Shown here piece by piece: positions 1 through 9,994 of a DNA stretch of 35,763 nucleotides. The stretch lies in the sequence record DRR723986_1341; one strand, 5' to 3'. Each line of letters begins with the position of its first letter. Position 1 is the stretch's first letter. The position numbers and the translations under genes were made by a program. The notes beneath the pieces are model-generated. The model made no database searches. It had not been told where the DNA came from and saw only the letters and a program-made list of their open reading frames with translations.

Positions 1-47
1 CGCTCCCGCCACTCGAAAACCTTCCAGAGAAAGTACAGCGAAAGGGT

Positions 48-1052
48 GTGCCGATGCGCATGTTTGACGGTAAGTCGTTGGTTGTTGCCATGGCGGCAAT
101 GGTTGGGTCGTTTCCGGCGGCTGCGGCCGATCTCGTGACCTATCAGCTCGACTGGTTGCCCGGCGGTGACAAGGCGCCGATCTATGTCTGCATTCAGGAG
201 GGCTTCTGCGAAGAAGCCGGTCTCGAAATCAAGATCGAACCTGGGCGCGGGTCTTCCGAGGCCATCACCAAGATCGCCACGGGGGCATCGGACATCGGTT
301 CCGCGGGCATGGGCGCCCTGATGGCAGCCAAGGCGACCGAAGGCGTACCGGTGACCGCGGTCATGACCATCTTCAACATGGGACCGCACGCTTTCTACAC
401 CACCAAGGACAGCGGCATCGCCTCGATCAAGGATGTCAAAGGCAAGAAGATCGCGACCTCGCCTTTCACCTCTTCCAACGTGTTCCTGCCGCTGGTTCTG
501 GCCGACAACGGATTGTCGGAAGAAGATATCACCCTGACCAAATCCGACCCCGGCGCTTTGGGGCCGCTGCTGATGACGGGCCAGTCGGACGCGATCATCG
601 CCTGGCTGACCGACGTCTCGCGCTATTCCGGCCAGGCGGCGGAGGCCGGCAAGGAACTGGTCGTGTTGCCCTGGGCTGATGCAGGTCTTGAGCTTTATTC
701 CGCATCGCTAGTTGCGGGTGACAAGTTCCTTGAGGAGCGCCCGGACGTCGCCAAGCGCTTCGTTGCGGCCTTCAAGAAGTCCCTCGAATTTGCCTATGCA
801 AACCCGGACAAGGCAGCCGCGGCAGTTTCCGCACAGGTGCCGGAGCTTTCGGCGGAAGACGTCAAGGGAAGCTGGCTGGATGCGTCCAAGCTTGCCTTCA
901 ACGATGTCACTGAAAAATTCCCGCTCGGCACAATCGATGCCGACAGGCTGGCGGCGACATGGACCCGCGTTGCCGCGGCGCAGGATCTGGACCCGGCATC
1001 CCTGAAACCTGAAGACGCTGTCAACCGCTCGTTCCTGCCGGCAGCGGAGTAA
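48..1052 (+). CDS. ABC transporter substrate-binding protein, NMT1/THI5 (SsuA/TauA-like) family
   Basis: Signal peptide ending AAAA-D; '[14 protein letters not shown]...[16 protein letters not shown]' and 'DVKGKKIA' are typical of NMT1/THI5 binding proteins. Start could be GTG48, ATG54 or ATG60. Confidence 0.9.
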
Positions 1053-1059
1053 CCCTCAA

Positions 1060-1839
1060 GTGGCACTCACCAACAACGCGATCAGCTTTTCCTCGGTCGG
1101 TCAGACGTTTCTGACCGGCTCGGGATCCGTCACCGCCCTGGACGGGGTCACCGTGACCATTGCTCAGCATGAGTTTGTAGCGGTGCTCGGCCCATCCGGA
1201 TGCGGAAAATCGACCTTGCTGAGGCTGACCGCCGGACTGATGAAACCTTCAAAGGGAACGGTGAGTGTCTTCGGCAAAGAGGTGACGATGCCGAGGGATG
1301 ATGTCGGCATCGTCTTCCAGAAACCGACATTGCTTCCTTGGGCCAACGTAGAGGACAACGTCGTCTTTCCGGTTCGCCACAAATACGGACGGGTGACGAC
1401 GGAGGACCGCGAACAGGCCCGCACCATCATCGAGACCGTCGGCCTGAAAGGATTTGAAAAGCGGCTGCCGTCGGAACTTTCCGGCGGCATGCAGCAACGG
1501 GTCGGCATTGCCCGGGCTCTGTTTCTCAATCCGGACATTCTTCTGATGGACGAACCGTTTTCAGCGCTTGATGCACTGACCCGCGATGCCATGGGCTTTG
1601 AACTTCTTCGGTTGTGGCAAGCAAGTCCGAAGACAGTCCTTTTCATCACCCACTCGATTCCGGAAGCCGCGCTGCTGGCCGACAGGATCCTTGTGCTCAG
1701 CGAGCGCCCCGGCCGCATCATCGCGGACCTGCAGGTGCCGACCGCCCGTCCGAGAGACGAAAGCGCGCTGAGAACGCCGGAGATGCAGGATTTCTCGGCC
1801 GAACTCCGCTCGCTGCTGATCAGAAAGGAGGCCGCCTGA
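1060..1839 (+). CDS. ABC transporter ATP-binding protein (TauB/SsuB type)
   Basis: Walker A GPSGCGKS, signature LSGGMQQR, Walker [13 protein letters not shown]-loop ITHS. Confidence 0.95.
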
Positions 1840-2690
1840 TGACTGTCAGCGAAACACAGGACACCGCCGCGGCGAAGACCACCCCAAAGCCCGAGCGTCT
1901 GGAGCGGCCGTTGCCGGTTTCCGAAAAGCTGCTCCGGATGCCTGTCGTACTTCCCTTGATCACCTTTTTCCTGATCCTGGTCATCTGGGAAGCCGGGACA
2001 CGGCTGTTTTCCGTTCCCTCTTTCGTGCTGCCCGCCCCTTCCCGCATTCTGGGCGGATTTGAAAGTGTTACAGCCGGACGCTGGATGGAGCATATCTGGG
2101 CAACGCTTCGGGTCGCCCTCATCGGCTATGCCGTTTCGTTTGTCATCTCGCTTCCGATTGCCGTCGGCCTGGCAAAGTCGCGTCTGCTTTCGGGGGCATT
2201 CTACCCGTTGCTCGTGGTCATCCAGTCCGTCCCGGTCGTCGCCGTCGCACCCATCATCATCGTGGTGCTGGGCACCGGTGATGCTCCACGCGTCGTCATC
2301 ACCTTCATGATCTCGTTCTTTCCGCTGGTCGTTTCCATGACGACGGGTCTGGCCGCCACGCCGCCGGAGCTGATCGAATTGTCCAGGTCGCTGCGCGCGC
2401 CGTCCTTCCGGGAGATCACGCAGATCCGCTTACCCTATGCGACGCCTTACATCTTCTCGGGCATGAAGATTTCGATCACGCTTTCGGTCATCGGCGCTGT
2501 CGTTTCCGAATTCGTCGCCGCCGAAAAAGGCATCGGCTACTTCATCCAGTTCTCCACGTCGATGTTCAAACTGCCCCAGGCCTGGGCCGGGCTTGTCATC
2601 CTCGTGATCATGTCGCTGGTCCTGTTCCAGCTTGTCAGCCTTCTTCAGCGGGTCTTCTTCCCCTGGTCGCTGCCGAAAGGTCAGAAATGA
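1839..2690 (+). CDS. ABC transporter permease (TauC/SsuC type)
   Basis: ATG at 1839 overlaps the ATPase stop (TGATG) after GGAGG. Multiple TM helices and the pattern 'LP...PYIFSGMKISITLSVIGAVVSEF'. The ORF-track start at 1614 is an over-extension. Confidence 0.92.
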   Translation: MTVSETQDTAAAKTTPKPERLERPLPVSEKLLRMPVVLPLITFFLILVIWEAGTRLFSVPSFVLPAPSRILGGFESVTAGRWMEHIWATLRVALIGYAVSFVISLPIAVGLAKSRLLSGAFYPLLVVIQSVPVVAVAPIIIVVLGTGDAPRVVITFMISFFPLVVSMTTGLAATPPELIELSRSLRAPSFREITQIRLPYATPYIFSGMKISITLSVIGAVVSEFVAAEKGIGYFIQFSTSMFKLPQAWAGLVILVIMSLVLFQLVSLLQRVFFPWSLPKGQK

Positions 2691-4090
2691 CCAGCTTCCT
2701 GATCACCAACATTGAGTATGGCCTGACCGGCAACCGGGAGGGCGACCGCCTCAGCGGGGCAATCCGGGTTCAAGACGGCCGGATAAAGGCCATCGGCGAC
2801 CTTCCGCCTCAGGAAGGCGAACGGATAGTCGACGCAAGCGGATGCGTGGTCACGCCGGGTCTGGTGAACACCCATCACCACCTGTTCCAGTCGGTTCTGA
2901 AGGCCGTGCCGGAAGGCATGAATGCGCCGCTTGACGACTGGCTCATGAATGTTCCCTACACCTACTGGCCGCTGATCGACGAGGAAACGCTGCGGGTATC
3001 GGCCCGGATCGGGCTGGCGGAACTGCTTCTGACGGGTACGACGACAGTCTGCGATCATCACTACGTCTTTTCGGACCGCTATGACTACGACCCGGCAACC
3101 GTGCTTTTTGAAGAAGCCGAAGCCCTCGGCGTCCGGTTCGTGCTGGCCCGCGGCGGTGGCACGAAGGGTCGCTCCTTTCCCGACCCTAGCCTGCCGCCTT
3201 CCCCCAGCGAGCCACTGGATGCCTTTCTGGCAGGCATCGAGCGAACCGCAAACCGATGGCATGACCCGTCGCCGGCGTCGCTCCGGCGGGTCGTCGTCGC
3301 GCCGACCACACCGACATTCAACGTCGATGCAGGTGAGCTTGCCTACATAGCCCGCTTTGCACGCGGTAAGGGCCTGCGCCTGCATTCGCATCTTTCGGAA
3401 AACCGGACTTACGTCGACTTCACCCTGGCGCGCTATGGCAAGCGGCCGGTTGACTGGCTTGCCGAGCAGCAGTGGCTCGGGCCGGATGTCTGGTTTGCCC
3501 ATCTGGTGGAATGCGACCGGGACGAGGTGCGCATGCTCGCGGAAACCGGAACCGGGATGGCGCACTGTCCGCAAGCAAATGCAAGGCTTGGCTCAGGCAT
3601 TGCTCCAGCTGACGCCCTGCACGACCTCGGCGGCAGAGTTTCGCTAGCTGTTGATGGCGCAGGCGCGAACGAGGCCGCCGACATGGGCGCTGCCCTCTAC
3701 AGTGCCTTCGCGCTGCACCGAGCGACAAAGGGCGTGCAGGCATTGCAAGCCGAAAGCCTGCTCAACTGGGCAACCGAAGGCGGCGCCAAAGTGCTCGGCT
3801 TTGAGGAGATCGGCGTGCTGCGTCCCGGCATGATCGCCGACATTGCCGTTTTCGACATTTCCGCCCCTCGCAACATGGGACTTCACGATCCGGCCCTTGC
3901 TCCCGTGCTGACGGGTGCCGCAAGCCTGCGTCACAGCTTTGTCGGCGGGCGGCAGATCGTCCGGGACGGTTCCATCCCCGGACTGGACCTGGCCGGGCTC
4001 GGTTCGGACGCAAGGCGTGTTACCCGGCAACTGATTGAACGCAGAAAGGAAATGACGGCGCCTCACCGGGCCCGCGCCGCCCAGGCCTGA
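2687..4090 (+). CDS. Metal-dependent amidohydrolase, Atz/Trz-guanine deaminase group; isoxanthopterin/8-oxoguanine deaminase-like
   Basis: PGLVNTHHHLFQ (HxH metal motif), HSHLSE (HxxE), FAHLV, AVDGAGANE (strand-8 Asp). ATGA overlap with the permease stop. Confidence 0.88.
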   Translation: MTSFLITNIEYGLTGNREGDRLSGAIRVQDGRIKAIGDLPPQEGERIVDASGCVVTPGLVNTHHHLFQSVLKAVPEGMNAPLDDWLMNVPYTYWPLIDEETLRVSARIGLAELLLTGTTTVCDHHYVFSDRYDYDPATVLFEEAEALGVRFVLARGGGTKGRSFPDPSLPPSPSEPLDAFLAGIERTANRWHDPSPASLRRVVVAPTTPTFNVDAGELAYIARFARGKGLRLHSHLSENRTYVDFTLARYGKRPVDWLAEQQWLGPDVWFAHLVECDRDEVRMLAETGTGMAHCPQANARLGSGIAPADALHDLGGRVSLAVDGAGANEAADMGAALYSAFALHRATKGVQALQAESLLNWATEGGAKVLGFEEIGVLRPGMIADIAVFDISAPRNMGLHDPALAPVLTGAASLRHSFVGGRQIVRDGSIPGLDLAGLGSDARRVTRQLIERRKEMTAPHRARAAQA

Positions 4091-4200
4091 TGGCAAATCG
4101 CCTGCGTCGGGCAGGCACATTCTTATGTGGAGTAGAAGCTGTCAGTGCCCATGAGCACGGGTCATTGCTCCCGGACCTCTTTCTCAAGGAGAACGGAAAT

Positions 4201-5199
4201 ATGAGCACCTCTGCATCTTATGGTCTCGTTGAACTGGAAAAGGAAAAAGGCTTCGGCGGCGTCGGTGAGACGGTCGATCGGTCAATTCCCCAGGTCGACA
4301 TGTCGGATTTCTTTTCGCGCAAGGCAGAGATCACCGAGGATCTGTGGGCAGCGGCGACGGACATCGGCTTTTTCCAGCTGAGCAACCACGGCATCCCGCA
4401 GGAACTGATCGACGAGGCTTTTCGACTGTCGGCCGGCTTCTTCGACCTGCCGGCCGAGACGAAAGAACAATATCCGCTTCGGCCCGGCACCAATGCAGGC
4501 TGGGAATTCAAGGCGCAGGTCCGCCCTTCAACCGGTACTGCCGACCAGAAGGAAAGCTACCAGATCACCCTGCCGCGCATGACAGGTCTCTGGCCGACCG
4601 GCGAAGAACTGTCCGGCTTCAAGGCGACCATGCTGGCATTCGAACGGCACAACTGGGCGCTGGCGATGAAGGTTCTGTCCTGCTTTGCCGACAAGCTGCA
4701 GTTTCCGCCGGACTTCTTCACTGACGGGCATGATCCCCTGACACCGGAATACCAGTCGACCCTCCGGCTGATCCATTATCTGGGCATGGAAGATGCCAAG
4801 CCAGAGGACTTCAAGTTCTGGCGGGCCGGTGCCCACACCGACTTCGACTGCCTGACACTGCTGCACCAGAAGGCAGGCCAGGGCGGGCTACAGCTTTGCC
4901 CGGGCAAGGACAGCCAGGGCCGGGCGATTGCCTGGACCGACGTACCCCCGCTGGAAGGCGTTATCACCTGCAACATCGGCGACATGCTGATGCGCTGGTC
5001 GGACGACAAGCTTCTGTCAAACCTTCACCGGGTGCGCATGCCCAAGCCGGAGGAATATCTCGGTCCTCGCTACTCGATGGCCTATTTCGCCCAGGCCAAC
5101 ATGGATACGGTGCTTGCAGGGCCGGAAGGCAAATATGAGCCGATGACGGCGCATGACTATATCCAGATGCGGCTAGGTGCGAATTTCGGCAAGAAATAG
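4201..5199 (+). CDS. 2-oxoglutarate/Fe(II)-dependent oxygenase, isopenicillin N synthase-like (DIOX_N + 2OG-FeII_Oxy)
   Basis: IPQVD...IGFFQLSNHGI N-domain; HTD...H facial triad (AHTDFD, NLHRV) and RYS 2OG-binding motif; AAGGAG RBS before ATG4201. Confidence 0.92.
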   Translation: MSTSASYGLVELEKEKGFGGVGETVDRSIPQVDMSDFFSRKAEITEDLWAAATDIGFFQLSNHGIPQELIDEAFRLSAGFFDLPAETKEQYPLRPGTNAGWEFKAQVRPSTGTADQKESYQITLPRMTGLWPTGEELSGFKATMLAFERHNWALAMKVLSCFADKLQFPPDFFTDGHDPLTPEYQSTLRLIHYLGMEDAKPEDFKFWRAGAHTDFDCLTLLHQKAGQGGLQLCPGKDSQGRAIAWTDVPPLEGVITCNIGDMLMRWSDDKLLSNLHRVRMPKPEEYLGPRYSMAYFAQANMDTVLAGPEGKYEPMTAHDYIQMRLGANFGKK

Positions 5200-5434: not shown

Positions 5435-5863
5435 ATGACCGAAGCCAAAAGCGGCGACACGGTTCGTCTTCATTATAAGGGCACGCTGGACGACGGCTCC
5501 GTCTTCGACAGCTCCGAAGGACGCGACCCGCTGGAATTCACCGTTGGATCCGGCCAGATCATTCCGGGTCTCGACCAGGCCATTCCCGGCATGAAGGTTG
5601 GCGACGAGAAGACGGTTCGCATCGAACCCGACAGCGCCTACGGTCCCCACAATCCGGCCGCACGCCAGGCTGTTCCGCGGACCAACATTCCGGCCAACAT
5701 CCCGCTGGAAGTCGGCATGCAGCTGCAGGCACAGACAGAGAACGGCCAGATGATGACCGTGACCGTGATCGAGATTTCCGAAAACGAAGTCATTCTGGAC
5801 GCCAACCACCCGTTGGCCGGCAAGGTGCTGACGTTCGAGATCCAGCTGACAGGGATCAACTGA
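5435..5863 (+). CDS. slyD: FKBP-type peptidyl-prolyl cis-trans isomerase (SlyD-like, no His-rich tail)
   Basis: GDTVRLHYKGTLDDGSVFDSS..R.PLEF..G.GQIIPGL and DANHPLAGKVLTFEI. Confidence 0.92.
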   Translation: MTEAKSGDTVRLHYKGTLDDGSVFDSSEGRDPLEFTVGSGQIIPGLDQAIPGMKVGDEKTVRIEPDSAYGPHNPAARQAVPRTNIPANIPLEVGMQLQAQTENGQMMTVTVIEISENEVILDANHPLAGKVLTFEIQLTGIN

Positions 5864-5947: not shown

Positions 5948-5982
5948 AAAAGCCCCGCGGTTCGCCGCGGGGCTTCTTTTTT
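5948..5982. terminator. Bidirectional intrinsic terminator between convergent slyD and dctP
   Basis: AAAAGCCCCGCGG-TTCG-CCGCGGGGCTT-CTTTTTT: perfect 11-bp stem, TTCG loop, T-tract on + and A-tract on the left. Confidence 0.9.
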
Positions 5983-6029: not shown

Positions 6030-7076
6030 TCAGTCCATATAGACGCTGTCGTTGGCTTTCTGGACCTCGGTCTTGAACATGCCAAGCAGTTCGTTGGCTT
6101 TCGGGTCGAGGTTTTCAGCCACGTGCGTTTCGAAAGCCGGCTGGGCCGCTGCAGCCATGGACGCGCGCTGGTCGGCGGTGAGAGCGGTCACTTCCATCTT
6201 GTCCATCAGGCCCGCCAATCCCCTGTCCGAGGCTTCGATGATGCGCGACAGGCCACGGCTGGCGGTTACACAGCTTTCCGCGGCATAGCGCAGGGTCTTC
6301 TGCTGCTCTTCGCTCAATCCTTCGAAGAAGTCCCGGTTGACCATGAACGTGTAGGGCGAGAACAGGTGGTTGGTCAGCGTCATGTACTTCTGAACCTCGG
6401 AGAAGTTCGCGAAGGAAATGATCGGCACCGGGTTCATCTGACCGTCGATGACGCCGGTCTGCAGGCCGGAATAGACCTCGCCCCAGGATAGCGGATAGGC
6501 CTGCGCGCCAAGCGCCTGAATGATGGTCTGGTGAGACGGCAGCGTCATGGTGCGGATGCGGATGCCGTCAAAATCATCGAGCGACGCGATCGGGTGTTTG
6601 GAATTGGTAACAGCAAAGAATCCGCCCGTGTCCGGGAAACCGAGCACGACAACATCTCCAAGGGCTTCCTCGATGTCGGCAGCCAGAGCCTTGCCGAAAT
6701 CACCGTCGAAAACCGCGTAGGTGGCGGCGTTGTCGGCGAAGGCGAACGGCAGGTTCAAAACGTCGATGCGTGGGTAGTAGCTTGCCAGCGCGCCGGTGGA
6801 CGTCAGTGTTGCCTGGATGATGCCGTCGCGCACATGCTGCACATGCTCGGCAGCCGAACCGAGCTGGTTGGAACCGAAGACCTCCACTTCGACGGCACCG
6901 TTGGTGTCTGCGTTGACGATGTTGGAGAACACCGCGGTGCAGGCATGAGCCGGATTTTCGAACGGGTCGGTCTTGTTGTCGTGTCCGAACTTCAACACCT
7001 TTCCATCTGCCAGCGCGCTGCCGGCCATAAGCGCAGCGGTCAGCCCGACCGCCAGTCCCTTTGCGAACTTCTTCAT
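6030..7076 (-). CDS. dctP: TRAP transporter substrate-binding protein DctP
   Basis: Signal peptide MKKFAK...ALA; 'GIRIRTM' (conserved carboxylate-binding Arg) and 'EVYSGLQTGVIDGQMNP'. Start at 7076 has GGAG upstream; 7088 is the alternative. Confidence 0.93.
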   Translation of the reverse strand: MKKFAKGLAVGLTAALMAGSALADGKVLKFGHDNKTDPFENPAHACTAVFSNIVNADTNGAVEVEVFGSNQLGSAAEHVQHVRDGIIQATLTSTGALASYYPRIDVLNLPFAFADNAATYAVFDGDFGKALAADIEEALGDVVVLGFPDTGGFFAVTNSKHPIASLDDFDGIRIRTMTLPSHQTIIQALGAQAYPLSWGEVYSGLQTGVIDGQMNPVPIISFANFSEVQKYMTLTNHLFSPYTFMVNRDFFEGLSEEQQKTLRYAAESCVTASRGLSRIIEASDRGLAGLMDKMEVTALTADQRASMAAAAQPAFETHVAENLDPKANELLGMFKTEVQKANDSVYMD

Positions 7077-7111
7077 GATTTTCTCCATTCCTCTGTCAGG
7101 TTGTTTTTTTG

Positions 7112-8395
7112 TTATTGGGCAAACCCGAGAGCACGCGGCAGCATCATCGCCGCGCTTTCCCAGAAGGCGAACAGGAACAGCACAGCCACTTCTGCGACCA
7201 GGAACGGCCCCAGCTTGATGGCAATCCGTTCCAGTTTCTCACCGGTGACCGATGAGAGAACGAACAGGCACGCGCCGACAGGCGGCGTCATCAGCGAGAT
7301 GTTGAGTGCCAGAACGAAGATGATCCCCGCATGGATCGGCTCCAGACCCACCTGAGCGGTGAGCGGAACAAGAACCGGTGCCAGGATGATCAGGATGGCG
7401 GTGATATCCATGACCATGCCGACGATCAGCAGAAGTCCGATGATGATGGCGATGACCGCATAGCGGTTGTCGGCCAGACCCAGGATGGTCTCGGCCAGCA
7501 TCTGGGGGATTTTTTCAAAGCTCATCCACCAGCCGAGGATGCCGGCAAAGGCGATGATGACGAAGATCACGCCGGTGATGCGCGCTGTGCGCACGAGCAT
7601 CTGGTAAAGTGCGGGCAAGGTCAGCGTGCGGTAGACGAATGCACCGATGAAGAGTGCATAGGCGACTGCAATGGAAGCAGCTTCCGTCGGCGTGACGACA
7701 CCGCCGAGAATACCTCCCAGGATGATCACCGGCATCAGCAGTGCGGTAATTGAGGAAACGAAGACCTGCCAGATTTCCTTCAGGTTGGCCCGGCGCTCCG
7801 CCTTGGGCAGGCTGTTGCGGGCCGCACCAAGGGAAATGACGGCCATGCAGACACCGCAGATCACGAGACCCGGCAGAATGCCTGCGGCGAACAACCCACC
7901 AATGGAAACGCCCATGAGCGAGCCGTAGACAACCATCAGACCGGACGGCGGGATGGTCGGTCCGATGATCGAACCGGCCGCCGTTACGGCGCACGCGTAA
8001 TCGCGCTTGTAGCCTTCCTTGACCATGGCGGGCACCAATGTGCGCCCGAAGGCCGCCGCATCCGCCGTTGCCGAACCCGTTAGCCCCGCAAAGAACACGG
8101 AGGCGAGCATATTTGTGTGGGCCAGCCCACCCCGGAAATGGCCGACCAGCACCTGGGCCAGCTTCACCAGCCGGTCGGTGATGCCCGTCTGGTTCATGAT
8201 TTCGCCGGCCAGAATGAAGAACGGCATCGCCAGAAAGGGGAAGATGTTCAGGCCGTTGAAGATACGGCTCGGCCCGATGGCCAGGAACTGGTCACCGCCC
8301 ATATGAATGAGGCCGATGACGCCGGCCGCGCCAATGGCAAAGCCGATAGGCATGCCGAGCAGGACAAATCCGATGAAGACAGCGGCAACGATCAT
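7112..8395 (-). CDS. dctM: TRAP transporter large permease DctM
   Basis: LAMPFFILAGEIM, FAGLTGSATAD, GPTIPPS, TPTEAA, MTPPVG motifs; ATG overlaps the dctQ stop. Confidence 0.95.
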   Translation of the reverse strand: MIVAAVFIGFVLLGMPIGFAIGAAGVIGLIHMGGDQFLAIGPSRIFNGLNIFPFLAMPFFILAGEIMNQTGITDRLVKLAQVLVGHFRGGLAHTNMLASVFFAGLTGSATADAAAFGRTLVPAMVKEGYKRDYACAVTAAGSIIGPTIPPSGLMVVYGSLMGVSIGGLFAAGILPGLVICGVCMAVISLGAARNSLPKAERRANLKEIWQVFVSSITALLMPVIILGGILGGVVTPTEAASIAVAYALFIGAFVYRTLTLPALYQMLVRTARITGVIFVIIAFAGILGWWMSFEKIPQMLAETILGLADNRYAVIAIIIGLLLIVGMVMDITAILIILAPVLVPLTAQVGLEPIHAGIIFVLALNISLMTPPVGACLFVLSSVTGEKLERIAIKLGPFLVAEVAVLFLFAFWESAAMMLPRALGFAQ

Positions 8396-8901
8396 GCTGC
8401 GGCCTCCGCAAACGGAGGATTGTCGAGATGGGTGCCGTTGTCCCGGATCATCGCCAGAACGGTCTGGATCGAGGCAAGGGCTGCGGCAGCCGGGATTGCC
8501 GCATAGAACGACTGCAGACTGATACCGAAGATCATGGCCTGCCGCTTGGCGCCGCTTTGCGCGAAACCGAGCCCGTACCACAGCACGTAGAGAAACAGCG
8601 CCAGAACGCAGAGATCAATCGCCATCAGCACAATGCGGCGCAACGACACCGGCACGCGCATGATGGCAGCCGTCAGTCCGATATGGTCCCGTCTGGCGAT
8701 GCCGGATGACACGGCCAGCATGGCTGCCCAGATCATCAGGTAGCGCGCCAGGATCTCCGGCCAGGGCAACTGCCAATGAAAGAAGTAGCGATCAACCACG
8801 CCGAGCCAGACATCAAGCACAAGCAGTGCCATCAGCAATGCTATTACAGCCTCGACGCCCGTATTCAGCCTGGCACTGGTTCTGGCAGCCCACTCGCGCA
8901 T
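8392..8901 (-). CDS. dctQ: TRAP transporter small permease DctQ
   Basis: Four TM helices; 'RY...LPWPEILARYLMIW...HI' pattern; GGAGG RBS before ATG8901. Confidence 0.9.
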   Translation of the reverse strand: MREWAARTSARLNTGVEAVIALLMALLVLDVWLGVVDRYFFHWQLPWPEILARYLMIWAAMLAVSSGIARRDHIGLTAAIMRVPVSLRRIVLMAIDLCVLALFLYVLWYGLGFAQSGAKRQAMIFGISLQSFYAAIPAAAALASIQTVLAMIRDNGTHLDNPPFAEAAA

Positions 8902-8917
8902 AATCCCTCCACCGAAA

Positions 8918-9046
8918 TGTACCTTAATTACATTTTCAGAGCAGAAATTGCGTTTCGTCAAGCGTATTTTGTTTTTAAATTACATTTATCGCGTAAATGA
9001 GGCTATGATCAGGCGCTGATTGACGATTTTGTGTAATCAAATTACA
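8918..9046. promoter_or_regulatory. Three RpiR/HexR-type operator sites TGT-N6-ATTACA in the divergent promoter region
   Basis: TGTACCTTAATTACA (8918-8932), TGTTTTTAAATTACA (8970-8984), TGTAATCAAATTACA (9032-9046; perfect 6-bp arms). Confidence 0.75.
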
Positions 9047-9070
9047 AATCCCGCAACCAGGGAGACACGT

Positions 9071-9994
9071 GTGCAGGCAAAGATCCGAACTCCGACCGGC
9101 GACAATACAAACGGCCATGCCGCTATCGATCTCATTTCCGCACTCCGCGATCACGCCGGCCAGTTTCCGGCGCGGGAACAAAAGGTTGCGGACTACGTGC
9201 AAAAGCATCTGTCCGCCATTTCGGACATGACGATCGCCGAACTGGCAAAAGCCTGCGGCGTCAGTACACCGACCGTCGTTCGGTTTTGCAGGACACTCGG
9301 CTGTGACGGTTTCCGGGAATTCAAGCTGCGTCTGGCGCAAAACCTGGCCGTCAGCCTGCAGTATATTTCCGCGCCATCTACCACCGAACAGGTTGCCAGC
9401 GAAACGGCGATCGACCGCGTTCTGGGCGCGCTTTATGCGACCGCCAATGTCATGCGGCAGCAGGTCGATCCGGCCGTTATCGAGCAGGCCGTCGAAAAGA
9501 TCGCCAAATGCCGGCAGCTTCTCACCGCCGGGATCGGCGGTGGGTCGACGATGGTGGCCGGTGAAGCGGCGAGCCGCTTTTTTCGCCTCGGGATTCCGTC
9601 TGTCGCCCTGCACGACAGCTATCTCCTGCAGATGCGCGCGGCGACCCTCGGGCCCGACGACGTTCTGCTGTGTGTCTCCGCCAGTGGCGAAGCGGATGAA
9701 CTGGTCAGCGCGGCCGAGATTGCCGGCGGCTATGGGGCCACCACGATCGCGATCGCACCGAAAGGCTCCCGCCTTGCAATGATTTCCAAGATCCCCATCC
9801 TGGTCGATCTTCCCGAGGACCCGGACATCTTCAAGCCCACCGCCTCGCGATACGCGCACCTGGTGATTGTCGACGCCATCGCTATGACGGTCGCCCAGGT
9901 CCGGGCCGCCACCACAAGCGAGAACCTGCGCCGGATCCGCTCTTCCCTGACCGCCTTCCATGGCCGTACCGGACCTCAACCTCTGGGCGATTGA
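9071..9994 (+). CDS. MurR/RpiR family transcriptional regulator (HexR-like; HTH + SIS domain)
   Basis: 'MTIAELAKACGVSTPTVVRFCRTLGCDGFREFKLRLA' RpiR HTH; SIS domain GIGGGS, VSASG, 'PTASRYAHLVIVD'. GTG9071 follows GGAGA; the ORF track starts at TTG9020. Confidence 0.92.
   Translation: MQAKIRTPTGDNTNGHAAIDLISALRDHAGQFPAREQKVADYVQKHLSAISDMTIAELAKACGVSTPTVVRFCRTLGCDGFREFKLRLAQNLAVSLQYISAPSTTEQVASETAIDRVLGALYATANVMRQQVDPAVIEQAVEKIAKCRQLLTAGIGGGSTMVAGEAASRFFRLGIPSVALHDSYLLQMRAATLGPDDVLLCVSASGEADELVSAAEIAGGYGATTIAIAPKGSRLAMISKIPILVDLPEDPDIFKPTASRYAHLVIVDAIAMTVAQVRAATTSENLRRIRSSLTAFHGRTGPQPLGD

What the first reader, a model, noticed from the sequence alone, without database searches (positions are those of the whole stretch)
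48..5199. Putative pterin/oxidised-purine uptake and catabolism operon: NMT1-type ABC importer, IXPD-like deaminase and 2OG-Fe(II) oxygenase
Seen: five co-oriented genes, the first four tightly coupled (7-bp gap, TGATG and ATGA overlaps). Established: NMT1/THI5 binding proteins bind N-heterocycles such as pyrimidines, and this amidohydrolase group deaminates heterocycles (guanine, 8-oxoguanine, isoxanthopterin, triazines). Inference: the operon imports an amino-heterocycle, deaminates it, and hydroxylates or opens it with a 2OG oxygenase rather than a molybdo-enzyme. I know of no characterised pathway pairing these two enzymes, so this may be an undescribed pterin or modified-nucleobase utilisation system.
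Basis: partly seen in the sequence, partly recalled or inferred. Interest (0 to 1): 0.72.

Follow-up and report, generated by a model that had tools for sequence, protein, structure and literature searches.

The report
Xanthine-riboswitch importer, deaminase and oxygenase operon
This is a local copy of an already described bacterial gene module in which a xanthine-sensing RNA switch controls an importer, a deaminase and an oxygenase for purine-like bases; what the enzymes really act on is still unknown.

Summary
The five co-oriented genes and their junctions are real. The fifth gene is mis-delimited. The oxygenase starts at ATG 4201, not 4090.

This gene set is already in print as the regulon of the NMT1-motif/xanthine riboswitch: PcbC-like dioxygenase, NMT1/TauA-type ABC importer, PRK12393 amidohydrolase and TadA-like deaminase (Weinberg 2017; Yu & Breaker 2020). 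The enzyme activities are not established. The scan found the same module before on other DNA.

New here:
- 69 of 80 orthologous dioxygenase loci carry the riboswitch core just upstream, and 38 of 80 have the PRK12393 gene adjacent.
- The dioxygenase's nearest solved relative is fungal thymine-7-hydroxylase, and its base-binding residues are invariant in the family.
- The nearest held genome has two canonical XdhB and two canonical guanine deaminases elsewhere.

Best reading: uptake of a guanine-like base, deamination to a xanthine-type product, then oxidation of a xanthine-scaffold base. A pterin role is not excluded but less likely. "Replacing a molybdoenzyme" is unsupported.

The parts
48..1052 (+). 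Periplasmic substrate-binding protein of a NitT/TauT-type ABC importer (NMT1/THI5-like). The start is GTG 48 or ATG 54, and the frame is open to the window edge.
   Evidence: Pfam PF09084 NMT1 3.2e-44. All NCBIfam SsuA/taurine/SaoX models score below their cut-offs. Best PDB hits are 4nmy at 5e-20, THI5, and a pyrimidine-binding ThiY-type protein 3ix1. A signal-peptide-like N-terminus is read.
1060..1839 (+). ABC transporter ATP-binding subunit.
   Evidence: PF00005 7.6e-36. The taurine, nitrate and SaoA ATPase models all score below their cut-offs. There is a 7-nt gap after the SBP stop.
1839..2690 (+). ABC transporter permease. ATG 1839 overlaps the ATPase stop (TGATG).
   Evidence: PF00528 1.1e-25 on the longer ORF 1614-2690. 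The junction and the upstream AAGGAGG were read. tblastn alignments in relatives start at the equivalent position.
2687..4090 (+). Subtype-III amidohydrolase-superfamily deaminase of the PRK12393 family (isoxanthopterin-deaminase-like).
   Evidence: NCBIfam NF009059 scores 601.9 bits against a cut-off of 543. 8-oxoguanine deaminase NF006055 scores 411.5 against a cut-off of 532. Best PDB hit is 2paj at 1.1e-124, then 7ww2 at 6e-84. H63, H65, Q68, H235, E238, H272 and D323 are invariant in alignment A1.
4100..4116 (+). GC-rich hairpin directly after the amidohydrolase stop. It has a weak terminator-like tail and its role is unknown.
   Evidence: Terminator-like hit. The stem is kept in L001 with a changed loop. 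Other loci have unrelated hairpins at the same place.
4125..4175 (+). Xanthine riboswitch aptamer (NMT1 motif RNA, RF03054). P1 is GGAGUA 4129-4134 paired with UGCUCC 4166-4171.
   Evidence: cmscan 46.6 bits, gathering 36, E 3.1e-7, full model 1-56. The core nucleotides are invariant across 12 diverse loci and the P2b stem varies. G001 has only two matches genome-wide, both in this operon.
4176..4192 (+). Expression platform: pyrimidine tract CCUCUUUCUC (4176-4185) and Shine-Dalgarno AAGGAGA (4186-4192).
   Evidence: With the aptamer enforced, 4177-4182 pairs with 4186-4191. In the partition function the SD is 0.97 paired, almost all of it with this linker and not with P1.
4201..5199 (+). Fe(II)/2-oxoglutarate oxygenase of the IPNS/PcbC-like subfamily, 332 aa. 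Its closest solved relative is thymine-7-hydroxylase.
   Evidence: PF14226 plus PF03171. Homologues are 318-347 aa. T7H 5c3p scores 2.4e-28. The AF2 model has pLDDT 92.6. Foldseek's top hits are all T7H: E 3.9e-29, TM 0.77-0.83, against 2e-24 for the next entry. H212, D214, H276, R290, S292, R189, Y193, F296, N98, Q121 and Q298 are invariant in 27 sequences.

Best explanation
The locus is a copy of the xanthine (NMT1-motif) riboswitch regulon.

Shown:
- An NMT1-type ABC importer and a PRK12393 deaminase form one translationally coupled block.
- A canonical xanthine/urate-binding aptamer sits 25 nt upstream of the start of a PcbC-like 2OG oxygenase. It most likely acts on translation through the adjacent Shine-Dalgarno sequence.
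- Close relatives carry a second, weaker aptamer copy before the importer gene, just outside the window.

Inferred mechanism:
1. The importer takes up a free base with a guanine-like (2-amino-4-oxopyrimidine) ring. This is more likely a guanine analogue than guanine itself: an oxidised or alkylated guanine, or less likely a pterin.
2. The deaminase hydrolyses the 2-amino group and gives a 2,6-dioxo (xanthine-type) product.
3. The oxygenase binds a uracil-type ring as thymine-7-hydroxylase does, and oxidises a xanthine-scaffold base.

My rough split for the oxygenase reaction:
- C8 hydroxylation of xanthine to urate: 35%.
- Oxidative removal of an N-methyl group from a methylxanthine: 20%.
- C2 hydroxylation of hypoxanthine: 20%.
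- Something else: 25%.

Xanthine or urate then feeds back through the riboswitch(es) and passes to the canonical xanthine dehydrogenase pathway encoded elsewhere.
For: Identity of the module:
- RF03054 scores above gathering at 4125-4175.
- The riboswitch core lies within 400 nt upstream of the dioxygenase in 69 of 80 orthologous loci (regex). Rfam confirmed 10 of 11 regex sites above gathering in the 8 of 80 loci that I sampled.
- The published regulon list matches gene for gene.
- G001's only two RF03054 matches flank this operon.

Linkage:
- PRK12393 is adjacent in 38 of 80 loci.
- A NitT/TauT-type ABC importer with an NMT1-family SBP lies beside the dioxygenase in 55 of 80 loci: this importer upstream in 46 (37 of them with PRK12393, 9 without it) and a second importer downstream in 10, with one locus having both.
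- Some deaminase (PRK12393, PRK07583 'cytosine deaminase' family or CDA-fold) lies beside the dioxygenase in 56 of 80.

Deaminase chemistry:
- The catalytic Q68, E238, H272 and D323 and the metal ligands are conserved. They are equivalent to the Q74/E243/H275/D326 machinery described for guanine-type hydrolases (PMC13054789, section 8).
- The nearest relatives are the 2paj protein, an isocytosine/8-oxoguanine deaminase and AtzB-cluster enzymes. Members of that cluster make xanthine from N2,N2-dimethylguanine.

Oxygenase:
- T7H is the top hit by sequence and by fold.
- These T7H residues are matched and invariant in the family: Arg190, Tyr194, Phe292 (base stacking), Asn87 (bond to O2), His214/Asp216/His271 and Arg286/Ser288. 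Tyr217 is matched by a nearly invariant Phe, F215, a substitution the T7H paper allows.

Analogue rather than guanine: G001 has two TIGR02967 guanine deaminases, one beside xdh, and two XdhB over the cut-off.
Against: - No enzyme of this module has been assayed in anything my searches found.
- Identity to T7H is only 31-33%. Two water-mediated contacts differ: Glu122 becomes Gln and Asn294 becomes Gln.
- In 24 of 80 loci the dioxygenase stands with no transporter or deaminase in the flanks. Its substrate may therefore be an ordinary intracellular purine.
- The one published reporter test found an OFF switch. That fits badly with xanthine as the oxygenase's substrate.
- My folding gives no clear sign for this copy. 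The SD is sequestered whether or not P1 forms: 0.13 unpaired with P1 enforced and 0.03 without.
- XdhB and GuaD were checked in the nearest held genome, not in the window's own assembly, which is not held.
- The protein closest to the deaminase was, as I recall, characterised on pterins, not purines.
Confidence: 0.55

Rival explanations
1. Plain purine catabolism, as Yu & Breaker proposed. The importer takes guanine or hypoxanthine, PRK12393 is a guanine deaminase, and the oxygenase is a molybdenum-independent hypoxanthine/xanthine hydroxylase that duplicates xanthine dehydrogenase.
For: - The riboswitch ligand is xanthine or urate.
- The authors reason that all regulated genes act upstream of xanthine and urate.
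- In 24 of 80 loci the dioxygenase has only its riboswitch, which fits a common intracellular substrate.
- AtzB-cluster relatives do deaminate guanine weakly.
Against: - G001 already has two canonical GuaD and two XdhB.
- PRK12393 scores only 119 bits on the guanine deaminase model, whose cut-off is 375.
- Relatives of this deaminase clade prefer analogues over guanine by 150- to 3600-fold.
- The oxygenase keeps the Asn that binds O2 of the uracil ring in T7H. Hypoxanthine lacks that oxygen.
Confidence: 0.22
2. Pterin utilisation. Isoxanthopterin or pterin-6-carboxylate is imported, deaminated to a lumazine, and oxidised or opened by the oxygenase.
For: - The best solved relative of the deaminase is 2paj (1.1e-124). 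I recall this as the isoxanthopterin deaminase of Hall et al. 2010.
- Some database records name homologues 'Isoxanthopterin deaminase'.
- Weinberg 2017 links the riboswitch-associated amidohydrolases to that family.
Against: - Weinberg 2017 says the riboswitch-associated proteins belong to an 'ambiguous' group, and that the natural substrate even of the assayed enzymes is unclear.
- The RNA is selective for xanthine, urate and 8-azaxanthine.
- No pterin-metabolism gene appears in the window or in the sampled flanks.
- I could not read Hall 2010, which is not held.
Confidence: 0.1
3. Pyrimidine or thiamin-pyrimidine salvage. An NMT1/THI5-type binding protein imports a 4-amino-pyrimidine (5-methylcytosine or HMP-like), a deaminase converts it, and a T7H-like enzyme oxidises the 5-methyl or hydroxymethyl group.
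For: - T7H is the nearest solved oxygenase.
- SBP relatives in the PDB include THI5 and a pyrimidine-binding ThiY-type protein.
- PRK07583 'cytosine deaminase' family genes accompany the dioxygenase in 16 of 80 loci.
Against: - Yu & Breaker report that pyrimidine bases and thiamin-pathway compounds do not bind the RNA, and they call the NMT1/THI5 annotation misleading.
- The deaminase's catalytic Gln is of the guanine/isocytosine type.
- An isoorotate decarboxylase partner was not looked for.
Confidence: 0.05
4. Xenobiotic s-triazine degradation, as implied by the deposited name 'hydroxydechloroatrazine ethylaminohydrolase'.
For: - The name appears on the Stappia aggregata IAM 12614 homologue.
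- TRZ/ATZ models score weakly.
- Triazine hydrolases appear among the PDB hits at about 1e-47.
Against: - All TRZ/ATZ models score far below their cut-offs.
- The family is conserved in marine and soil Alphaproteobacteria under a purine riboswitch.
- AtzB itself is described as recently evolved from guanine-analogue hydrolases (abstract).
Confidence: 0.03

Closest known systems
Xanthine riboswitch (NMT1 motif RNA, Rfam RF03054) and its regulon (Weinberg et al. 2017; Yu & Breaker 2020; structure Xu et al. 2021)
   Same: - The aptamer scores above gathering and all core nucleotides are present.
- It sits just upstream of a pcbC-type dioxygenase, with no strong terminator.
- The operon also holds the NMT1/tauA-type importer and the PRK12393 amidohydrolase.
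- A TadA-like deaminase lies next door in relatives.
   Different: - Here the aptamer is internal to the gene row, between the deaminase and the oxygenase. The copy before the importer scores below gathering (29-31 bits) and lies outside the window.
- The P1 3' strand is UGCUCC in 66 of 67 dioxygenase-proximal copies and in 0 of 31 importer-proximal copies. I did not find this class difference in the papers I read.
Thymine-7-hydroxylase (Neurospora crassa T7H, PDB 5c3p-5c3s)
   Same: - IPNS-type fold: TM 0.77-0.83, top Foldseek hit.
- The facial triad, the RxS 2OG site, the Arg190 equivalent, the stacking Phe and the Asn that binds O2 of the base are all matched.
- The substrate is expected to be a free base.
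   Different: - Identity is 31-33%, and Glu122 and Asn294 are both replaced by Gln.
- The enzyme is bacterial and is controlled by a purine-sensing RNA that rejects pyrimidines.
- No activity is known.
Isoxanthopterin deaminase / 8-oxoguanine (isocytosine) deaminase / N2,N2-dimethylguanine hydrolase (NdmH) group of the amidohydrolase superfamily
   Same: - Same fold and catalytic machinery.
- 2paj scores 1.1e-124 and 7ww2 scores 6e-84.
- The products of the purine-acting members are xanthine or urate. These are the riboswitch ligands.
   Different: - The protein falls in its own NCBIfam equivalog, PRK12393, which has no assigned function.
- It carries APTTPTFN where the 8-oxoGuaD-type paralogue has APCSP-FS and where NdmH is reported to have C, Q and N.
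XanA, the fungal 2OG-dependent xanthine dioxygenase (recalled, not fetched)
   Same: It would have the same overall reaction if the oxygenase hydroxylates xanthine at C8.
   Different: As I recall, XanA belongs to the TauD family. The protein here matches only PF14226 and PF03171.

Membership tests
Xanthine riboswitch RF03054 | Covariance-model score at or above Rfam's gathering score over the full model | tested here: met
   46.6 bits against 36, model positions 1-56 of 56, E 3.1e-7.
Xanthine riboswitch RF03054 | Conserved junction nucleotides (GAGUAGAAGC ... CAG ... GGG.CAUUGCUC) with variable, covarying P2b | tested here: met
   The core is invariant in 12 diverse loci while the P2b sequences differ. 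The cmscan alignment shows every capitalised consensus position matched.
Xanthine riboswitch RF03054 | Binds xanthine or urate and changes expression of the downstream gene | not testable with these tools
   Folding gives no clear switch for this copy. The published test covers one other representative.
Xanthine-riboswitch regulon (Yu & Breaker gene list) | pcbC/DIOX_N dioxygenase immediately downstream of the aptamer | tested here: met
   The aptamer ends at 4175 and the ORF starts at 4201. The same arrangement holds in 69 of 80 loci.
Xanthine-riboswitch regulon (Yu & Breaker gene list) | NMT1/tauA-type transporter and PRK12393 amidohydrolase in the same gene row | tested here: met
   PF09084. 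NF009059 scores 601.9 bits, above its cut-off of 543.
Xanthine-riboswitch regulon (Yu & Breaker gene list) | tadA-like (CDA-fold) deaminase associated | tested here: inconclusive
   Not in the window. It lies divergently upstream in L001 (PF00383 4.5e-20; TadA model 57 bits against a cut-off of 150) and occurs in 37 of 80 loci.
8-oxoguanine deaminase (NCBIfam NF006055) | Score over the curated cut-off | tested here: not met
   411.5 bits against 532. A true member lying beside the module in L025 scores 665.8.
Isoxanthopterin deaminase | Close sequence relation to the assayed enzyme and an intact catalytic site | tested here: met
   2paj 1.1e-124 over residues 19-451. Catalytic residues are conserved. 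That 2paj is the assayed enzyme is my recollection.
Isoxanthopterin deaminase | Substrate-specifying residues defined by Hall et al. 2010, and activity on isoxanthopterin | not tested
   The paper is not held. Weinberg 2017 places the riboswitch-linked proteins in an 'ambiguous' group.
N2,N2-dimethylguanine hydrolase (NdmH) | CQNN residues (poNdmH C213, Q214, N217, N165) | tested here: inconclusive
   No NdmH sequence was at hand. By position relative to 7ww2 (APCSP-FS) the protein here has APTTPTFN: T,T in place of C,Q, with the Asn kept.
Thymine-7-hydroxylase | HxD...H triad, RxS, and Arg190, Phe292, Tyr217 and Asn87 equivalents | tested here: met
   H212/D214/H276, R290/S292, R189, F296, F215 (Phe is allowed according to the paper) and N98. 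All are invariant or nearly so in 27 sequences.
Thymine-7-hydroxylase | Glu122 and Asn294 equivalents, and orthology-level similarity | tested here: not met
   Q121 and Q298 stand in their place. Identity is 31-33%.
TauD-family xanthine dioxygenase (XanA) | TauD domain | tested here: not met
   Only PF14226 and PF03171 match at E <= 0.001.
NitT/TauT-type ABC importer | NMT1/SsuA-like SBP, one ATPase and one BPD_transp_1 permease in a row | tested here: met
   No substrate-specific equivalog reaches its cut-off.

The most novel reading that the evidence does not exclude
The module is a dedicated route that turns damaged or modified guanine-type bases into ordinary xanthine or urate. Candidate substrates are N-methylated guanines from RNA turnover and 8-oxoguanine-like bases. 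The T7H-like enzyme would be the first bacterial IPNS-type purine oxygenase, acting either as an oxidative N-demethylase of methylxanthines or as a molybdenum-independent xanthine 8-hydroxylase.

The two riboswitch copies in one operon would follow different logic. The importer-proximal copy would shut uptake and deamination when xanthine is high. The dioxygenase-proximal class has a P1 3' strand, UGCUCC, that is complementary to the GGAG Shine-Dalgarno sequence. It would open translation when xanthine binds.
Probability: 0.2. Interest if true: 0.7.

Novelty: new member of a known kind. Interest (0 to 1): 0.35.

Why it matters
The xanthine riboswitch is validated, but the enzymes it controls have no assigned reaction. 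Yu & Breaker say so explicitly. Assigning the reaction of the PcbC-like oxygenase and the PRK12393 deaminase would fill a gap in bacterial purine metabolism. This oxygenase family is very widespread in marine and soil Alphaproteobacteria: at least 589 genomic matches and 2273 related proteins. The assignment would also say whether bacteria have an iron/2OG route for purine-ring oxidation or for recycling methylpurines. As a genome-scan finding this instance is ordinary: one more copy of a described module.

Tried and rejected
1. I first read the platform as an OFF type, with the aptamer's 5' strand acting as anti-anti-SD. The partition-function analysis did not bear this out for this copy: the SD is sequestered by the linker in both states. 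Across loci the picture is mixed. With P1 enforced the SD is more open in 32 of 70 loci, less open in 1 and unchanged in 37. P1-3' is the main SD partner in 31 of 67 and another region in 34 of 67. I therefore leave the sign open.
2. I asked whether the oxygenase replaces xanthine dehydrogenase. I rejected this for the lineage because G001 has two XdhB over the cut-off.
3. I looked for published enzymology of the dioxygenase or of PRK12393:
   - 'xanthine riboswitch': 27 papers.
   - A five-term search on xanthine, 2-oxoglutarate-dependent, riboswitch, dioxygenase and guanine deaminase: 2 papers.
   - A badly chosen search swamped by 'XanA...' words.
   - 'NMT1 motif' and 'PRK12393': 8 papers.
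   - '8-oxoguanine deaminase': 17 papers.
   - Methylguanine demethylase terms: 1 irrelevant paper.
   None of these characterises these proteins. Subscription journals are mostly not covered.
4. Hall et al. 2010 could not be read, so the IXPD specificity residues were not compared.
5. The window's own assembly is not held. Genome-level statements rest on G001, which shares 56% of the sampled words.
6. The Danchin guanidine review and the Angewandte amidohydrolase paper added nothing on this module.

Full report
**What is in the sequence**

The window's first 5.2 kb carries five + strand genes.
- TAA 1050-1052 is followed by 7 nt and then GTG 1060.
- TGA 1837-1839 overlaps ATG 1839-1841.
- ATG 2687 overlaps TGA 2688-2690.

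Pfam and NCBIfam give these assignments:
- an NMT1/THI5-like binding protein (PF09084, 3.2e-44);
- an ABC ATPase;
- a BPD_transp_1 permease;
- an amidohydrolase that passes the curated cut-off of one NCBIfam equivalog only, NF009059/PRK12393, which is named just 'amidohydrolase family protein' (601.9 bits against 543; 8-oxoguanine deaminase 411.5 against 532; guanine deaminase 119 against 375);
- a DIOX_N plus 2OG-FeII_Oxy oxygenase.

**The error in the observation**

- Homologues are 318-347 aa and align to the 332-aa product that starts at ATG 4201.
- A GGAG lies 9 nt before that ATG.
- Rfam places a full-length xanthine riboswitch aptamer (RF03054, the 'NMT1 RNA') at 4125-4175: 46.6 bits against gathering 36, E 3.1e-7.

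The 110-nt spacer therefore holds a GC hairpin (4100-4116), the aptamer, a pyrimidine tract and the Shine-Dalgarno sequence.

**It is a described module**

Weinberg et al. 2017 (PMC5737381, passages read) report that NMT1 RNAs precede NMT1 genes, dioxygenases and amidohydrolases 'probably related to isoxanthopterin deaminases'. They describe those amidohydrolases as an 'ambiguous' group.

Yu & Breaker 2020 (PMC7373994, sections 5-8 and 14 read) report the following.
- The RNA binds xanthine (about 3.7 uM), urate (about 25 uM) and 8-azaxanthine.
- It rejects N1-, N3- and N7-methylated analogues, hypoxanthine-type bases, pyrimidines and thiamin compounds.
- The associated genes are pcbC-type dioxygenases, NMT1/tauA transporters, PRK12393 amidohydrolases and tadA-like deaminases.
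- One representative, tested in E. coli as wild type against an aptamer-dead mutant, behaved as an OFF switch.
[quoted passage not shown]'

Two earlier notes of this scan describe the same module in other genomes. I reached the riboswitch independently before reading them.

**How conserved it is**

A scan of species-representative genomes gave at least 589 confirmed relatives of the oxygenase. I examined the best 80 loci, which are 63-98% identical. Counts by tblastn and a motif pattern:

| Feature | Loci |
|---|---|
| Riboswitch core within 400 nt upstream of the oxygenase | 69 of 80 |
| PRK12393 gene directly upstream | 38 of 80 (37 with the ABC genes) |
| ABC genes directly upstream without the amidohydrolase | 9 of 80 |
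| CDA-fold deaminase nearby | 37 of 80 |
| PRK07583 'cytosine deaminase' family gene nearby | 16 of 80 |
| At least one of these deaminases | 56 of 80 |
| None of them | 24 of 80 |
| Riboswitch core also before the importer gene | 31 of the 45 loci with that gene |

- The 11 loci without the riboswitch core are L030 and ten soil or Xanthobacteraceae-type loci.
- The PRK07583 assignment rests on 583-588 bits against a cut-off of 403.
- Rfam itself confirmed 10 of 11 pattern sites above gathering in the 8 of 80 loci that I sampled. It missed the proximal site of L079.
- In the closest named relatives (Roseibium/Labrenzia, L001-L003, 96-98%) the layout is the window's. They add a divergent CDA-fold deaminase and a weaker aptamer (29 bits, E 3e-4) about 130 nt before the importer gene. 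Both lie just beyond the window's 5' end.
- One Roseibium genome (L005) has the CDA deaminase, riboswitch and oxygenase but lacks the importer-amidohydrolase block. The block therefore behaves as an accessory cassette.

**The deaminase**

Its best solved relative is 2paj (1.1e-124). Next come 7ww2 (6e-84; deposited as 8-oxoguanine deaminase, and I take it to be the isocytosine deaminase of the papers listed) and 3hpa. That 2paj is the isoxanthopterin deaminase of Hall et al. 2010 is my recollection, because the paper is not held.

In an alignment with orthologues and a PRK08203 paralogue, H63, H65, Q68, H235, E238, H272 and D323 are invariant. Drexler et al. 2026 (PMC13054789; abstract and sections 7 and 8 read) describe the equivalent Q/E/H/D set as the machinery of guanine-type hydrolases. 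They show that AtzB-cluster homologues are N2,N2-dimethylguanine hydrolases that release xanthine, and that these prefer the analogue over guanine by 150- to 3600-fold. They mention no riboswitch, operon or dioxygenase (0 occurrences).

The window's enzyme has APTTPTFN where the 8-oxoGuaD type has APCSP-FS and where NdmH is reported to carry C, Q and N. I therefore do not file it as either. It is a sister group whose substrate should still carry the 2-amino-4-oxo ring, and whose product should carry the 2,4-dioxo ring.

**The oxygenase**

By sequence the best solved relative is Neurospora thymine-7-hydroxylase (2.4e-28). An AlphaFold model built on 53 sequences (pLDDT 92.6, pTM 0.92) finds T7H chains as its first ten Foldseek hits: E 3.9e-29, TM 0.77-0.83, against 2e-24 for the next entry.

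I mapped the residues that Li et al. 2015 (PMC4787775, passages read) show to bind metal, 2OG and base onto the alignment.

| T7H residue | Role | Window protein |
|---|---|---|
| His214/Asp216/His271 | metal binding | H212/D214/H276 |
| Arg286/Ser288 | 2OG binding | R290/S292 |
| Arg190 | binds 2OG and substrate | R189 |
| Tyr194 | 2OG binding | Y193 |
| Phe292 | base stacking | F296 |
| Tyr217 | covers the base | F215 (an allowed variant) |
| Asn87 | direct bond to O2 | N98 |
| Glu122 | water-mediated contact | Q121 |
| Asn294 | water-mediated contact | Q298 |

All these positions are invariant, and F215 nearly so, in 27 family members down to 64% identity. The family is compact: only 118 of 1.84 billion representatives score 1e-30 or better.

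So the enzyme most likely clamps a free uracil-type ring next to the iron. A xanthine ring laid on thymine would put N7/C8 where the thymine methyl sits. That is my geometric inference, not a computation.

**Genome context**

The window's own assembly is not held. The nearest held genome, G001, has:
- two XdhB over the cut-off (1332.6 and 1193.7 bits against 849.5);
- two canonical guanine deaminases (560 and 546 bits against 375), one about 2.7 kb from an xdhB;
- exactly two RF03054 matches, both in this operon (46.6 and 31 bits).

The module is therefore an addition to ordinary purine catabolism, not a replacement. This is the main reason I favour a guanine analogue over guanine as the substrate. 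The rest of the window is housekeeping: TRAP transporter, AddAB-like nucleases, GrpE, thioredoxin, SAH hydrolase and two-component systems.

**Direction of regulation**

This is unresolved for this copy.
- With the aptamer enforced, 4177-4182 pairs with the SD at 4186-4191.
- The same hairpin dominates without P1. The SD is 0.13 unpaired with P1 enforced and 0.03 without, and 0.97 of its pairing is to the linker.
- Across 70 dioxygenase-proximal copies, enforcing P1 opens the SD in 32, closes it in 1 and changes little in 37.
- The P1 3' strand is the main predicted SD partner in 31 of 67 copies, and another region in 34 of 67.
- The P1 3' strand is UGCUCC, complementary to GGAG, in 66 of 67 dioxygenase-proximal copies. 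It is UGCUCC in 0 of 31 importer-proximal copies, which read UGCUCA, UGCUCG or other hexamers.

This hints that the two positions use different platforms, and that some dioxygenase copies could be ON switches. That is contrary to the single published OFF result. It is a thermodynamic model only.

**Verdict**

The locus is one more member of the xanthine-riboswitch regulon. What remains open, and worth bench work, is the chemistry of its two enzymes and the logic of its two RNA switches.

Noticed in passing
L001 3671-3719; L084 (G001) 1501-1549; just upstream of window position 1: A second, short-stem xanthine-riboswitch-like element (29-31 bits, below gathering) lies about 130 nt before the importer's binding-protein gene. 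The same core is present before that gene in 31 of the 45 loci that have it.
   Followed up: partly
dioxygenase-proximal against importer-proximal riboswitch copies in L001-L080: The P1 3' strand is UGCUCC (complementary to the GGAG SD) in 66 of 67 dioxygenase-proximal copies and in 0 of 31 importer-proximal copies. This suggests two platform classes, and possibly different regulatory signs.
   Followed up: partly
L001 2967-3536 (-), 2423-2923 (+), 247-2178 (-): Just outside the window's 5' end, relatives carry a divergent CDA-fold (TadA-like) deaminase, a MarR regulator and a phenol 2-monooxygenase family gene (1098.8 bits). The deaminase recurs in 37 of 80 loci.
   Followed up: partly
L005 (Roseibium aggregatum SY-2-12) 6867-9618: This strain has the CDA deaminase, riboswitch, oxygenase and FKBP gene. 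It lacks the importer-amidohydrolase block and the TRAP transporter block of the window. This is an insertion/deletion polymorphism within the genus.
   Followed up: no
L025 1547-2932 (-); also L026, L028, L037: A bona fide PRK08203 '8-oxoguanine deaminase' family gene (665.8 bits against a cut-off of 532) sits next to the CDA deaminase, upstream of the module. These loci therefore carry three deaminases of guanine-type bases.
   Followed up: partly
L031-L034, L036, L041-L044, L071 downstream of the oxygenase: An alternative architecture: riboswitch, oxygenase, small ORF, a second NMT1-type ABC importer, a PRK07583 'cytosine deaminase' family gene, a FAD_binding_4 oxidase and flavodoxin-like reductases.
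   Followed up: no
L045, L061, L064-L066, L073, L075, L076, L078, L080 upstream of the oxygenase: Soil or Xanthobacteraceae-type orthologues lack the riboswitch. Most share a different conserved upstream element (about CGATTGCCTAACTTATGCACTTGCCTA) next to a divergent gene, possibly a protein operator.
   Followed up: no
L042, L058, L060, L062, L079 upstream of the oxygenase: Two or three riboswitch cores lie in tandem within 400 nt of the oxygenase start.
   Followed up: no
window 4100-4116: A GC-rich hairpin lies between the amidohydrolase stop and the aptamer. Unrelated hairpins occupy the same place in other loci. It could be a partial terminator or an RNA-stability element.
   Followed up: partly
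window 3-47 and L084 1600-1680: The binding-protein frame is open upstream of GTG 48 to an in-frame ATG with an AGGAG, about 50 nt after the upstream aptamer. This would be a 27-codon extension or leader. The signal-peptide-like sequence begins at ATG 54.
   Followed up: no
window 5435-5863 (+), 6030-8961 (-), 9020-9994 (+): An FKBP-type isomerase follows the oxygenase, with a strong bidirectional terminator at 5950-5975. Then come a DctPQM TRAP transporter on the minus strand and an RpiR regulator. The FKBP adjacency is limited to the closest relatives.
   Followed up: no
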